64,000 nt of DNA from Octopus vulgaris. Its lineage: Eukaryota. How positions within the stretch are numbered: the first letter of the stretch is position 1; the number at the start of each line of letters is the position of its first letter. The notes under the pieces were generated by a model, which was not told the DNA's origin, did not search any database, and saw only the letters and a program-made list of their open reading frames with translations. Below are positions 2,021 through 62,350 of this stretch, piece after piece. The stretch lies in contig OX597816.1 of assembly GCA_951406725.2 (NCBI GenBank), positions 30,256,001 through 30,320,000 of the forward strand, read 5' to 3'. Position numbers and translations under genes: made by a program.

Positions 2021-2060
2021 TCCAGACATGTTTCGGTTTTATTAGACCTTCTCAGTAAAA
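2021..2060 (-). ncRNA. Degenerate minimal hammerhead ribozyme motif
   Basis: Minus strand CTGAGAA-GGT(ctaataaa)ACC-GAAA-CATG-TC; one core substitution versus CTGANGA; similar to the motif at 62311-62350. Confidence 0.4.
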
Positions 2061-2267
2061 CATGCACTTAGTCACACCTTACCGAAATAGTGATGAGAGA
2101 ATATTGCACCGGAGAAAGCATGACAAATTAACAACTTTTCGGACGTTCCTTTTCCTTCGATGACTCTGGGGAGATTTAATTAATGTAAAATGTCTAGCTA
2201 TTTCTCTTTTAAGTTTCTACTTTTAGCGTTGCACACTGACACACACACACACACATGCATATATATA

Positions 2268-2640
2268 TACTCTTTTACTCTCTTTTACATGTTTCAGTCA
2301 CGTGACTGTGGTCATGCTGGAGCACCGCCTTTAGTCGAGCAAATCGACCCCAGGACTTATTCTTTGTAAGCCTAGTACTTATTCTATCGGTCTCTTTTGT
2401 CAAGCGATTTTGGGGGTACAAACACAGACACACAGACATACACACACACACACATACATATATATATATATACATATATACGACGGGCTTCTTTCAGTTT
2501 CCGTCTACCACATCCACTCACAAGGCTTTGGTCGGCCCGAGGCTATAGTATAAGGCACCTGCCCAAGGTGCCACGTAGTGGGAATCAACCGGGAACCATG
2601 TGGTTCGTAAGCAAGCTACTTACCACACAGCCACTCCTAT
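2268..2640 (-). mobile_element. SINE family B (tRNA head, CORE-like domain, internal TA/TG tract)
   Basis: Reverse complement of GGAGTGGCTGTGTGGTAAG...GGCACCTTGGGCA...GACTGAAACA.GTAAAAGAG, shared with more than 10 other copies. Confidence 0.9.
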
Positions 2641-3331
2641 ATATATATATATTCCTTAGTTTCACAAGCATAGGACCACCATTAATGAAATTCCAATCGT
2701 GCTTTCAAAATGGCCGACAAATATTCTGACGTCAAACCTACGACAAAGCAAAATAATTCTTTGTCGCTTTGAAACTCATATTGATTGAAGTTAAGGCGAT
2801 TATTGTTTGTGAGACAGTTGTTGAGTTTCGGTTATTTGATACTATTAGTATTTCAAAATCATATCTCTCAAGGCTACGGATTCACACGGAACATTACGTA
2901 CATTCGTGTGTGTGTGTGTGTGTGTAGCTGTGTGTATGTACGCACACACTCCCATATATGTATGGATTGCTGAACGTTCCTATTTGCTAACGAAGAAAAG
3001 TATATACTACATAGAGGGCGTCTCTTTTTGGCGTGGTTGTATGATTAAGAGTCACGGGTTCATTCCTATTGCGCTGCATTTCGGGCAAGTGTCTTCTACA
3101 ACACTTTTAGGTCGACCAATGCCTTGGGAGGAATTTTGGTAATTTTTTTTCAGTCATTAGAGAGCGGCCATGCTGGAGCACCGCCTTGAGGAATTTTAGT
3201 TGAACTAATCGAGCCCAATACTTTTTTCTTTTTTAAGTTTGGTACTTATTCTATCGACTTCTTTTTGTCGAACTGCTAGGTTACGGGGACGTAAACACAT
3301 CAACACCGACTGTCGAGTGGTGGTAAGGGGT

Positions 3332-3505
3332 AAGGCGCCGAGCTAGCAGAATCGTTAGCACGCCGGGCGAAATGCTTGGCGGTATTTCGCTTGTCGCTAC
3401 GTTCTGAGTTCAAATTCCGCCTTTCATCCTTTCGGGGTCGATAAATTAAGTACCAGTTACGCACTGGGGTCGATGTAATCGACTTAATCCGTTTGTGTCT
3501 GTCCT
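3332..3505 (+). mobile_element. SINE family A, partial
   Basis: AAGGCGCCGAGCTAGCAGAATCGTTAGCACG...GAGTTCAAATTCC...AAGTACCAGTTACGCACTGGGG. Confidence 0.85.
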
Positions 3506-4685
3506 TCTAATTGTCTGTTCAATTTTAATCTTTTGTTCAAAGTTTTACAATCGTTTCACAGAGTTTTATACTTCTCCGAGAAGCAAGAACCACATCTTTT
3601 GGAACCTTTAATATAGGAAGAGGCACATTCTATAATGAACTAAAGAATTTTACAATTGTTTATAATTTCACTCTCTTAACTTCAGATATATTTGGCATCT
3701 GAATGTACATCTATATTATGGGAGTCGTTTTTCAAAGCACTTCAGTAAACTATATATATATCTTTGACCTTCGATTCTACTTACAAAGGACATTTTAGCT
3801 CAAGGGACACAAACCGTGTAGAGGGGCGATATCAAAGTTTGAGTACACAAACATTTTCTTCTTTTAAGCTGGCCACAGAAACTGATATTTTGGTAAAGCT
3901 ATAATTCCCCTTAATGTTTTTTCGTAGAGAATCTTATGATATAAATGTTCGATAGGATATGCTTTTTTTAAGGGTTAAGAAAATCCTGGTAGTGTCGAAC
4001 CAGCCGTTTCAGTTATATATAAACGGTAAAATGTCGTCTGCGTGTGTGTCCTTTATACAAATCCACAATTTTTCAGTTAGAGGGCTAGCACTTTCTATGG
4101 TCATTCAAAACCGTCCAAGGGTAGTCATGCACATCTTTACATTTCCCCAGTCACCCTGCAAAGCCATTAAAAAATCAATAGAAGTGACTTTTTTTTGTGA
4201 ATTTTCTATCCAAACCCCAATCAAAATGCCCGAAACTTGATACGCCAATTGAATGCCAGCTAGCTGTATGTGATTGGTCGGAGATTTGGACAGTACTCGC
4301 GTGTATGTGCGCATGCACGCAGCTGTATTTGCATGCACTAGCACTTTGGCCCGGCGTTATATTATAAAATATTTAGTTTACGATGGTAACACTTGTGAAT
4401 ATCGGCTTAATTCCTTTTGTAATGTATTCTATTTGAATGTACAATTTATACGCAAACAGATGTACGTACCAATGACCCTTATAAACAATATATATATATA
4501 TATACTTATAAGTAAACAAAAGTTTGCAATTGGCAGACTGTTAATTTAGAAGCTAAAAATAACCACTAGTCAGAAAATAAACAAGACTGTAAAATCCTTA
4601 GCCTTTTATGAACCATATATAATTCTTCTGTCAAATACTAGTGCAGATTAATATATTTTGAAAAAGCGAGCAGCAGAAATATATA

Positions 4686-5102
4686 CTCTTTTACTCTTTT
4701 ACTTGTTTCAGTCATTTGACTGCGGCCATGCTGGAGCACCGCCTTTAATCGAGCAACTCGACCCCGGGACTTATTCTTTGAAATCCCAGTACTTATTCTA
4801 TCGGTCTCTTTTTGTCGAACCGCTAAGTGACGGGGACATAAACACACCAGCATCGGTTGTCAAGCAATGCTAGGGGGACAAACACAGACACACAAACATA
4901 CACACACACACATATATATATATATATACATATATCCGACAGGCTTCTTTCAGTTTCCGTCTACCAAATCCACTCACAAGGCATTGGTCGGCCCGGGGCT
5001 ATAGCACAAGACACTTGCCCAAGGTGCCACGCAGTGGGACTGAACCCGGAACCATGTGGTTGGTAAGCAATCTACTTACCACACAGCCACTCCTGCGCCT
5101 AT
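4686..5102 (-). mobile_element. SINE family B, full length
   Basis: Matches other B copies end to end; head ATAGGCGCAGGAGTGGCTGTGTGG on the minus strand. Confidence 0.92.
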
Positions 5103-5302
5103 ATTCCATTATTTTTACATTAAATCCGTTTACTACTCTGTTATGGAATAATAGTTCAACTGCATATCCAACGGCTCAATAATATGCACTTTTGAGAATT
5201 TACTCTGTTCAAAATAATAGAAGCCAGTCCGTTTGCAACCAATACAATCCTTCAGAATGTCTCAGATTCATCAGTGGGTTCGTCCCAATTAATGATCTGA
5301 AC

Positions 5303-60200: not shown

Positions 60201-60769
60201 TTAGTTTAGCGTTGTTATTTAGCCTCAGAGCAACCTTGGAGAAGTAAATCTAAGATTAAAAAGCGTTCAGTCATCAAGTATTTACGTTTATCAAACACAA
60301 CATTGTCTAATGTGTCCTTTCTTGGATGAGATTTTCTTTCTCTTCCTCAGTAAAAAGAGACAAGAACCAGTGTAGTTTCGGCTTGTGGTGTAAGTGCATG
60401 AAGCATGGTTGGAGAGCGTCAGGAAAGAATGGAGGTTCTTATCAACTGCATAAGAGTGTTGTTCTTGACTGTAAGAAGATTATTGATGTTCAGAAGGAAG
60501 AGATTGGGGTATAAAATCAAAAGTCTGGGGCTCAGAAGAAATGGTTAAATGTGGGACAATTGCTAACGCATTTCTTACTTTCTTTGTATTATTTTAACAT
60601 TATTGTTCTTGTGACATTAGGAAGAGACAAAGCAACATTAGATAAAAATCTGCAGCAGCATTGAGTTCACAACACCGAAAGAATAAATACCAGTCTTGTA
60701 CTGGTATCGATATAAATAAGATGATATTTCTCCCTCCACTTTTGATTACATATGCCTATGTTAAATATC

Positions 60770-60976
60770 TGTTTCTTTATTACCCACGAGGGGCTAAACA
60801 GAGAGGGGACAAACAAGGACAGACAAACGGATTAAGTCGATTACATCGACTCCCCGTGCGTAACTGGTACTTAATTTATCGACCCCGAAAGGATGAAAGG
60901 CAAAGTCGACCTCGGCGGAATTTGAACTCAGAACGTAACGGCAGACGAAATACGGCTACGCATTTCGCCCGGCGCC
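60770..60976 (-). mobile_element. SINE family A with 24-bp TSD
   Basis: TTACATATGCCTATGTTAAATATC at 60746-60769 and 60977-61000. Confidence 0.92.
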
Positions 60977-61004
60977 TTACATATGCCTATGTTAAATATC
61001 ATTA

Positions 61005-61480
61005 AAGGCAGCAAGCTGGCAGACTCGTTTGCACGCTGAATAAAATACTTAGTAGCATTTTTTCCGGCTTTACGGTCTGTGCTTAAATATCTTCGGAGGT
61101 AGATTTTGGCTTTCATCCTTTCTGGAACGATAAAATAAGAAACTGTTGAGCACTGGGTGGGTGTAATCAACTTGCCCCCTCCCTCGAAATTTCAGCCCTT
61201 ACGCTCACAATAGAAAGAAAACTTATTGTTCTCATGACAATCCAGCTGTATTCCACTTAATATTACAGCAAGCTGACAGAATCGTTAGCATGCCGGACGA
61301 AATGCTCAGCAGCATTTAGTCCGCCTTTATGTTCTAAGTTCAAATTCCGCCGAAATACACTTTGCCTTTCATCCTTTTGGGGTTGATAAAATAAGTATCA
61401 TTTGAGCACTGGAGTCGATGTGATTGGTTTATCCCACCGTCACCGAAGTTGCTGGCCTTGTGCCAAAATTTGAAACCAAT
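61005..61480 (+). mobile_element. Two older SINE A-related copies
   Basis: Diverged heads CAGCAAGCTG.CAGA at ~61009 and ~61266. Confidence 0.75.
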
Positions 61481-61961
61481 ATTTCATTGCTCTATGTTCG
61501 GTAAAATAAGCACCTTTTAAAAGTTGAGGTTAAATTATTCGTTAATACCAACCGTATGAAAACCATTTAAGTTAAATCTAATTAAATCTCATTAATTACA
61601 AAACACAGAAAAATCGTAATTTCATGCATTTTCAAAATGTAATGATAGAAGGTGGTTTTACACGCATGCACATGCGCACACACACACACGCACGCACACA
61701 CACACACACACACGCACACACACGCACACACATACACCACTCTTGCGTTTATATATATAACGGTCAGCTAAGATTATCTCAGCAATTAGGTGACAAACGC
61801 TTAGTCATGGAGTGTTTAAGATAATAAAAATAATAAAATAACGAACACTAACAAGATTAGCTGATCAAAATTTTAGGACAATAATTCTTATATATATATA
61901 TATATATATATATATATATATATATATATATATATATATATCTATATCTATATATACGTTT

Positions 61962-62106
61962 AAATATTTGTTGTGCAAGATTTTTTATGTGAAGTCGTGT
62001 TGAAACAGATATTGTTATATTTCGGAAGCAAAATAACACCAAATATATAGTGCGTGTGTTTTTATTGGCTAAACTGGCAATATGACCATTCCGAAATATA
62101 ACAATA
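61962..62106 (+). mobile_element. Internally deleted copy of the 23970-24422 element
   Basis: Both ends of that element joined at TTTCGGAA|GCAAA; (TA)n on both sides. Confidence 0.8.
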
Positions 62107-62310
62107 TATATATATATATATATATAAGTAGTCAAGCGACCGTTTAATAAATAACGAATTTAATAATTTGGAATAAATATAATTTTTCGTAATCAACAAA
62201 ACTGCCTTTCTATGCTATATACTGATTACTTAATGCATACGCGCGCGCACGATATTGTATATGTCTGCTATATACTTGTAACTATTCATTTTGCCAACTG
62301 AATAAAACAC

Positions 62311-62350
62311 TTCGCTGAGGAGGTGTAATAAGACTGAAACATGTTTATTG
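62311..62350 (+). ncRNA. Minimal hammerhead ribozyme motif
   Basis: CTGAGGA-GGT(gtaataag)ACT-GAAA-CATG-TT; palindromic ACATGT stem III; stem I poor. Confidence 0.4.

What the first reader, a model, noticed from the sequence alone, without database searches (positions are those of the whole stretch)
2021..62350. About five unrelated short non-coding elements each carry a hammerhead-ribozyme core
Seen: the ordered pattern CTGANGA - hairpin - GAAA - short, often palindromic spacer - TH occurs at 9746-9811 (+), 12146-12233 (+), 24258-24302 (+), family E (four minus copies, one diverged plus copy) and the 2021/62311 pair. Sequences outside the core differ, and most host elements are bounded by (TA)n. 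Known: Penelope-like retroelements and retrozymes carry minimal type I hammerheads whose palindromic stem III works as a dimer. Inference: the genome hosts a diverse set of non-autonomous, ribozyme-bearing retroelements that favour TA tracts.
Basis: partly seen in the sequence, partly recalled or inferred. Interest (0 to 1): 0.75.

Follow-up and report, generated by a model that had tools for sequence, protein, structure and literature searches.

The report
Penelope-element hammerheads plus one retrozyme
The ribozyme-like motifs are real repeats, but three of the five families are cut-off ends of protein-coding Penelope-type jumping genes, one is likely a small non-coding parasite of them and one is an old unresolved remnant; these are known kinds of element, here very abundant in a probable octopus genome, and self-cutting is predicted, not shown.

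Summary
The motifs are real: 2 complete hammerheads in the window against 0.02 in shuffles, and one subclass has 14,752 genome matches against 48 control matches. The 'non-autonomous' reading holds for one family. E (five copies) and C are terminal repeats (pLTRs) of RT + GIY-YIG Penelope-like elements (PLEs); B lies about 1.1 kb behind a Hydra-type endonuclease; A is a non-coding ~504-nt unit in partial tandems (retrozyme-like); D is old and unresolved. All young families end in (TA)n, and A, B and C show PLE tails and inverted arms. Solo E copies stop at one fixed 5' site (0 of 28 pass it), which fits internal priming on an uncut transcript. Three amplifying lineages carry core changes (U4C, A9C, and A6U in at least 19,515 copies of a sister family of E). 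Hammerhead-bearing, TA-targeting PLEs are published, including one from Octopus. This scan reported the same kind of population, and the A6U core, on other DNA. No cleavage or RNA evidence was obtained.

The parts
9259..10071 (+). Family A insertion: inverted arm (about 9259-9375) plus about 1.4 units of a ~504-nt non-coding monomer (9374-10071), TA on both sides; retrozyme-like
9754..9811 (+). A hammerhead, complete: stem I 9754-9758/9807-9811, core 1 9759-9765, stem II 9766-9791, core 2 9792-9795, palindromic stem III 9795-9805, predicted cut after 9806
12018..12265 (+). Family B insertion: inverted ~95-nt tail (about 12018-12113) joined to the last ~155 nt of a Hydra-type PLE, TA on both sides
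12148..12231 (+). B hammerhead, complete: 3-bp stem I, core 1 12151-12157, long stem II closed by a U-U mismatch (12158-12216), 8-nt palindrome 12220-12227, predicted cut after 12228
23971..24420 (+). Family C insertion: inverted tail and end (about 23971-24060) plus 5'-truncated 3' pLTR of an RT + GIY-YIG PLE, TA on both sides
24258..24302 (+). C hammerhead variant: core 1 24264-24270 with A9C, 6-bp stem II, weak non-palindromic stem III (24291-24296), predicted cut after 24297
61968..62109 (+). Second family C fragment (inverted tail plus short 3' end) without the ribozyme
2019..2061 (-). D-type hammerhead, old copy: core 1 at 2055-2049 with G8A, stems I-III present, predicted cut after 2025
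62307..62350 (+). D-type hammerhead, old copy: core 1 62315-62321 intact, stem I broken; lies next to one arm of a 127-bp inverted repeat (61757-61882 / 62401-62527)
50382..50596 (-). Family E solo pLTR copy (core 1 at 50512; core 2 altered)
44109..44303 (-). Family E solo pLTR copy (core 1 at 44234, U4C)
33193..33402 (-). Family E solo pLTR copy (core 1 at 33325; core intact, stem I broken)
16905..17127 (-). Older E-lineage solo pLTR copy (core 1 at 17046; stem III broken); ends approximate
30322..30500 (+). Decayed E-lineage copy (core 1 at 30386); ends approximate

Best explanation
These are the ribozyme-bearing terminal repeats of several Penelope-like retroelement (PLE) families: E and C belong to RT + GIY-YIG elements, B lies behind a Hydra-type endonuclease, A is a non-coding tandem unit likely copied in trans by a PLE enzyme, and D is an old remnant probably of the same kind. 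Inferred mechanism: the PLE protein cuts (TA)n DNA and starts reverse transcription inside its RNA at one of two fixed sites 100-270 nt downstream of the ribozyme (main end and tail end); copying usually stops early, leaving short ribozyme-bearing ends, and a second start gives the inverted arm. Solo E copies most likely arise when copying starts in the 5' pLTR of an uncut transcript and runs to its start site. The hammerheads are predicted to cut only as dimers through the palindromic stem III; cutting is likely needed by A (circle or monomer formation) but likely dispensable or slowed in the autonomous families.
For: Shown: C has same-strand PLE ORF pieces upstream in 14 of 30 loci and a pLTR-ORF-pLTR copy with an extra inverted pLTR in L193. 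E lies 875-1122 nt upstream of a PLE ORF piece in 11 of 30 loci and flanks a whole RT-EN ORF in L319. B continues 1.05-1.1 kb upstream into a GIY-YIG-like end in 3 independent loci, with a CxCX5C linker seen in one, like the Hydra alignment in PMC8557442. A: no same-strand ORF upstream in 0 of 30 loci; ~500-nt direct repeats in 18 of 29 non-window loci, two direct ribozymes in 3 of 29, ends at about +200-221 or +305-327 (hand tally). Optional tails and inverted arms in A, B, C. Compensatory stem changes between A and a 75%-identical subfamily and between B and a 71%-identical one, both found by element-level BLAST. E: 0 of 28 unselected copies extend upstream of one site, 16 of 28 start within 19 nt of it, 24 of 28 end at the same TA-like site. 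Literature: PMC4209133, PMC8557442, PMC11167929 (internal initiation at two sites; ribozyme mutants do not block insertion in vitro), PMC7229834, bioRxiv 10.64898/2026.07.22.740005.
Against: No cleavage, transcript end or circle was observed. Pfam support for the ORFs is below gathering thresholds (RVT_1 E 5e-4 to 0.015, GIY-YIG E 0.002 to 0.03); the PLE call rests on motifs and layout, with no tree. No RT was found for B and no partner enzyme for A or D (0 of 59 D loci with a same-strand upstream ORF piece). Rfam has no hit. Monomer MFE folds never give the full three-way junction. A copies do not pile up at the predicted cut (2 of 11 loci within 2 nt). The transcription start in E is inferred from copy ends only. 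PMC11167929 reports initiation without homology to the target, whereas these ends share 3-6 nt of TA-like sequence with it.
Confidence: 0.85

Rival explanations
1. All five families are independent non-autonomous, ribozyme-bearing retroelements.
For: Window copies are short and non-coding; E has a fixed length; A is non-coding.
Against: C, E and B continue into PLE ORFs in other copies.
Confidence: 0.07
2. Solo E copies are a self-propagating SINE-like family: short pLTR transcripts are made from solo copies and copied in trans, rather than being by-products of full-length transcripts.
For: Solo copies far outnumber long ones (0 of 28 unselected copies carry upstream sequence); deletion derivatives that join the ORF start to E exist (5 of 30 loci); U4C is in 9 of 11 body-joined pLTRs but in only 15 of 47 E copies overall.
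Against: The pLTR continues upstream of the E boundary in long copies, so solo copies may lack the promoter part; the fixed boundary is equally explained by a start site in the 5' pLTR.
Confidence: 0.3
3. The hammerhead folds in the autonomous families no longer cut in vivo and are kept as RNA signals bound by the PLE protein.
For: Core changes reported or expected to slow cleavage are carried by amplifying lineages: U4C (E), A9C (C), A6U/C (E2) (PMC3088659 for A6C and U4C); E copies span the predicted cut; ribozyme mutants still insert in vitro (PMC11167929).
Against: In E2 the other core letters stay fixed while the free position 7 changes between subfamilies, as expected of a working core; B and the large family G keep canonical cores.
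Confidence: 0.25
4. The motifs are chance matches in AT-rich repeats.
For: No Rfam hit; most window copies are imperfect.
Against: Enrichment of 40-fold in 400 kb and about 300-fold genome-wide over controls; compensatory changes.
Confidence: 0.01

Closest known systems
Minimal type I hammerheads in pLTRs of metazoan PLEs (Cervera and de la Pena 2014, PMC4209133; read parts 1-2 of 4: results, discussion)
   Same: Short stem I, palindromic stem III for dimers, unpaired base after A9 (E), thousands of mostly single copies from truncated PLEs, many sequence families per genome.
   Different: Host not in the parts read; family-wide U4C, A9C and A6U cores are not mentioned there (it reports U3-A8).
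Hydra-clade PLEs, including Hydra-1_Obim of Octopus bimaculoides (Craig et al. 2021, PMC8557442; passages, section 11, supplement hits)
   Same: C-terminal GIY-YIG with CxCX5C linker, canonical hammerhead, (TA)n insertion, tails and inverted arms: family B.
   Different: B has a different ribozyme (long stem II with U-U closure) and a ~1.1 kb 3' UTR; its RT was not recovered.
Neptune-type EN+ PLEs (CX2-5CxxC linker; PMC8557442 passages)
   Same: [quoted passage not shown]
   Different: Clade not tested by tree; E leaves mostly fixed-length solo pLTRs.
Metazoan non-LTR retrozymes (PMC7229834, passages; Li et al. bioRxiv 10.64898/2026.07.22.740005, parts 1-3 of 5)
   Same: Family A: non-coding, low-GC tandem unit with one type I hammerhead per unit, proposed to be PLE-dependent.
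   Different: A is ~504 nt (coral 220-240, mussel 350-390), mostly 1-1.6 units with PLE-type inverted arms in TA; circles not shown.
Anolis PAc Poseidon element (Frangieh et al. 2024, PMC11167929; passages and section 3 part 2)
   Same: Two internal RT start sites defining a tail, AT-rich targets, uncut RNA as template.
   Different: Here the start sites share short TA-like sequence with the target, and solo pLTRs with a fixed 5' end dominate family E.

Membership tests
Minimal type I hammerhead of PLEs | Conserved core C3-A9, G12-A15.1, U16.1, H17 | tested here: met
   Met by family majorities of A (28 of 29 copies), B (27 of 29), E (15 of 29) and D (pooled majority); C deviates at position 9
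Minimal type I hammerhead of PLEs | Stems I and II with compensatory changes | tested here: met
   A/A2 and B/B2 pairs change on both sides in stems I, II and III; the 21-family table is partly circular because many rows came from a stem-requiring scan
Minimal type I hammerhead of PLEs | Palindromic stem III (dimer fold) | tested here: met
   A, B, D, E palindromic; C not (4 of 6; self-duplex +1.4 kcal/mol)
Minimal type I hammerhead of PLEs | Match to an Rfam hammerhead model | tested here: not met
   0 of 12 excerpts at E up to 10
Minimal type I hammerhead of PLEs | Self-cleavage as dimer | not testable with these tools
   needs bench assay
EN+ Penelope-like element | ORF with RT and GIY-YIG linked to the ribozyme repeat | tested here: met
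   C and E met (Pfam weak); B endonuclease only; A and D not met
EN+ Penelope-like element | pLTR on both sides of the ORF | tested here: met
   L193 for C, L319 for E; not seen for B
EN+ Penelope-like element | Optional tail and inverted 5'-truncated arm | tested here: met
   A, B, C; not seen in solo E copies
EN+ Penelope-like element | RT groups with PLE/telomerase RTs in a tree | not tested
   no reference set was aligned
EN+ Penelope-like element | Target-site duplication | not testable with these tools
   ends lie in microsatellites
Hydra clade (family B) | CxCX5C linker, CxxC and CxH near the endonuclease end | tested here: met
   frames of L205/L331 compared by eye
Hydra clade (family B) | RWK and DKT motifs in RT | tested here: inconclusive
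   no B-linked RT in L331-L333
Neptune-type clade (families C, E) | CX2-5CxxC linker before a C-terminal GIY-YIG with CCHH | tested here: met
   translations; CCHH clear in E, plausible in C; the clade itself was not tested by tree
Non-LTR retrozyme (family A) | Non-coding tandem units, each with a type I hammerhead | tested here: met
   period ~504; two direct ribozymes in 3 of 29 loci; no ORF
Non-LTR retrozyme (family A) | Expressed circular RNA | not testable with these tools
   only assembled contigs were available
Non-LTR retrozyme (family A) | Loop 1 / loop 2 tertiary contact of canonical hammerheads | not tested
   not examined

The most novel reading that the evidence does not exclude
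PLE masters have repeatedly amplified with altered hammerhead cores (U4C in E, A9C in C, A6U in the E sister family E2, at least 19,515 exact copies) while keeping the rest of the fold and letting only position 7 drift, so these are natural slow or protein-dependent ribozymes tuned to leave the RNA uncut long enough to be copied; and SINE-like solo pLTRs are the genomic record of internal priming in the 5' pLTR of such uncut RNA.
Probability: 0.35. Interest if true: 0.65.

Novelty: new member of a known kind. Interest (0 to 1): 0.38.

Why it matters
What the hammerhead does for Penelope-like elements is an open question (PMC8557442, PMC11167929). This genome supplies matched natural cases: a non-coding parasite that keeps a perfect core (A), autonomous families that amplified with changed cores (C, E, E2), and a family whose copy ends map an RT start and a likely transcription start (E). 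They allow direct tests of whether cutting is needed. The annotation point also matters: short 'ribozyme elements' in TA tracts should not be called non-autonomous without walking to longer copies.

Tried and rejected
Rfam on the whole window: the 150 listed of 397 hits were nearly all microsatellite-driven microRNA models, none a hammerhead; 247 were not shown. Sequencing runs for A: no RNA holder listed; four runs laid were contigs only, with no start/end information, so they are no evidence either way. Pile-up of A 5' ends at the predicted cut: 51 matches = 11 loci, 2 within 2 nt of the cut, 4 about 11 nt upstream, 5 at +5 to +10; too few to exclude cleavage. Endonuclease pieces near A loci L055 and L058 and B locus L086 are separated from the ribozyme element by TA tracts or inversions and were not counted as partners. 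Core-versus-flank test within young families is weak because copies decay neutrally and hits were chosen by similarity (that script failed part-way, after the conservation table and two folds). D core conservation is biased by the query; the less biased pattern search gave only 6 loci. ARAGORN finds no tRNA in the window or in family G heads. Lunse et al. 2017 is not held; its content is recalled, not read. Paper searches that found no description of these octopus families or of A6U/A9C cores in PLEs: (open-access library only; Repbase/Dfam not available; bioRxiv supplements closed, so supplementary tables of the Li preprint were not seen). A planned comparison of other genome families against the window and a scripted tally of A ends were not done, so extra decayed families in the window may be missed and the A counts are hand tallies.
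Full report
Setting. The window is G000:C3:30256001-30320000 in a 2.8-Gb assembly of 227 contigs, 35.7% GC and dense in microsatellites. That it is an octopus is my inference from size, from repeats recalled as octopus SINEs and from earlier scan notes; no call establishes it.

Observation. Ten hammerhead-like motifs lie at the cited places. Two are complete (A 9759, B 12151). C (24264) has C9 and the 2055 copy has A8, so they miss the stated pattern; 62315 and all five E copies are damaged. 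A descriptor with both core strands, stems I and II and a palindromic stem III finds 2 in the window against 0.02 in block shuffles (0 of 50 reach 2), and 16 in 400 kb of position-picked genome against 0.4 (10 shuffles; 7 hits are one array). I widened the descriptor after seeing B; the narrower one gave 1 vs 0.05. An exact genome pattern for one subclass (extra base after A9, G10.1-C11.1, 4-nt palindrome) has 14,752 matches against 48 for the reversed control. Rfam does not recognise the motifs (0 of 12 excerpts).

Families. Each window element has many genomic relatives: capped first-look candidates 1257 (E), 2609 (A), 2556 (B), 1605 (C), 29 and 73 (D). Alignments of 29-30 loci each give complete hammerheads as the majority in A, B and E and a C9 variant in C. 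A 75%-identical A subfamily (L195) and a 71%-identical B subfamily (L192), found by element-level BLAST, keep the core and change both sides of pairs in stems I, II and III. Within young families the core is better kept than flanks in B (2/319 vs 31/376), no different in A and C, and worse in E (18/319 vs 33/1855, partly from U4C).

C is an autonomous-type PLE. 14 of 30 loci have RT or GIY-YIG pieces upstream on the same strand. L193 shows inverted pLTR, pLTR, ORF with a deletion, pLTR. Copies end at one site or after a ~50-nt tail, mostly in TA. The window copy is an inverted tail plus a truncated 3' end.

B is likely a Hydra-clade PLE end. Longer copies run about 1.1 kb upstream into an endonuclease end in three independent loci (L201, L205, L206), with a CxCX5C linker in L205, matching the Hydra description and alignment in PMC8557442. 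The first ~95 nt of the window element is the inverted tail. No linked RT was found. The U-U closure of stem II is a known natural variant (PMC3088659).

E is the pLTR of a PLE with a Neptune-type linker. One E locus abuts a PLE N-terminal piece. Searching with that piece gave 30 loci: 11 have E 875-1122 nt upstream on the same strand, running on into the element body, and 5 are deletion derivatives with E just downstream. L319 has E on both sides of an RT-EN ORF and a CA-rich 3' UTR. The pLTR continues upstream of the E boundary in long copies, yet 0 of 28 unselected E copies pass that boundary, 16 of 28 start within 19 nt of it (9 of these at +18/19, where the reference copy has a small deletion), and 24 of 28 end at the same site, where the element's own continuation is TA-like for 6 nt. 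Random truncation of 3' pLTRs would not give a hard stop. The simplest reading, inferred, is priming inside the 5' pLTR of an uncut transcript and copying to its start, in line with internal initiation on uncut RNA in vitro (PMC11167929). A self-propagating solo family is the rival.

A is the non-autonomous one. No same-strand ORF lies upstream in 0 of 30 loci. Upstream sequence is the same ~504-nt unit again: direct repeats in 18 of 29 non-window loci, two direct ribozymes in 3, ends at two fixed sites about 105 nt apart, frequent inverted arms (hand tally). This fits a retrozyme copied by a PLE enzyme from a circle or a tandem transcript; the two are not separated here, and 5' ends do not cluster at the cut (2 of 11).

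D is old. The two window copies did not find each other; pooled D-like motifs have a canonical majority core (G8 in 33 of 51, A8 in 18, query-biased); no same-strand ORF piece lies upstream in 59 loci.

Core variants. U4C is in 9 of 11 body-joined E pLTRs and 15 of 47 E copies. C9 is in 28 of 30 C copies. E2, a sister of E absent from the window, has a pyrimidine at position 6 in 19 of 19 copies found by their 3' half (2 of 21 dropped for lost register); the other ten core sites average 96% conservation against 85% for the body, and position 7 takes all four bases in a subfamily-structured way (11 changes vs 21.8 shuffled; weakly supported tree). An exact pattern counts 19,515 such copies against 0 control. 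A6C and U4C are reported as slow but active elsewhere (PMC3088659). I found no paper on A6U or A9C in PLEs, but could not read Lunse et al. 2017.

Known versus new. Minimal dimer-type hammerheads in truncated PLEs (PMC4209133), TA targeting, tails and inversions, and an Octopus Hydra element with a hammerhead (PMC8557442), mollusc retrozymes (PMC7229834) and their PLE dependence (bioRxiv 2026) are all in print; Penelope expansions in octopus are noted in PMC8967140 (passages). The scan has reported the same mixture and the A6U core on other DNA. So these are new members of known kinds. Shown: motifs, enrichment, ORF linkage of B, C, E, tandem non-coding A, fixed ends. Inferred: insertion mechanism, transcription start of E, dependence of A on a PLE. 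Untested: any cleavage.

Noticed in passing
L220:2097-4768 (G000:C1 about 20.002-20.005 Mb): One TA-flanked insertion of about 7.5 near-identical 359-nt units (97-100%), each of 7 with a complete hammerhead, as an inverted arm plus a direct arm: a young retrozyme array with a PLE footprint, suggesting rolling-circle copying.
   Followed up: partly
L266-L275 (G000:C1, 0.58-15.2 Mb): Family G, the commonest class among the first 100 listed hits: a tRNA-like head with A- and B-box-like motifs (by eye; ARAGORN negative), an AAT run and a canonical minimal hammerhead, often as inverted pairs; a possible PLE-driven SINE.
   Followed up: partly
L247:3829, L237, L241 and genome-wide: Family E2 with a fixed A6U/C core, at least 19,515 exact copies; longer copies extend upstream over 300-490 nt of CA-rich sequence like the 3' UTR of the E element.
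   Followed up: yes
window 41485-41640 (+): Short PLE endonuclease-like fragment (47% to the E protein, E 6e-7).
   Followed up: no
window 732-1243, 12649-13490, 51590-52375, 56556-56972 and others: SINE-like family with a 184-bp unit in tandem arrays of 2-4; recalled as an octopus SINE, not checked.
   Followed up: no
window 34995-35389, 36700-37094, 47369-47792, 48649-49074: Four copies of a ~400-bp element with 29-bp terminal inverted repeats, MITE-like.
   Followed up: no
window 21204-21922: 177-bp tandem pair and inverted copy with a Tc1/mariner-like ORF fragment (family from recall).
   Followed up: no
window 59920-60249 (-): C-terminal fragment of an RTE-like LINE ORF (family from recall).
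   Followed up: no
window 48751-48784: Short interstitial run of the 6-nt telomere-type repeat.
   Followed up: no
window 9540-9730 and L316/L323 upstream of E: A TATA-like box and an ETS-like motif follow the tail end in the A unit, and an ETS-like motif lies just upstream of the fixed E boundary: candidate Pol II promoters (by eye).
   Followed up: no
L222, L224, L231, L232, L243, L255: Further unrelated complete hammerhead families in 400 kb of position-picked genome.
   Followed up: partly
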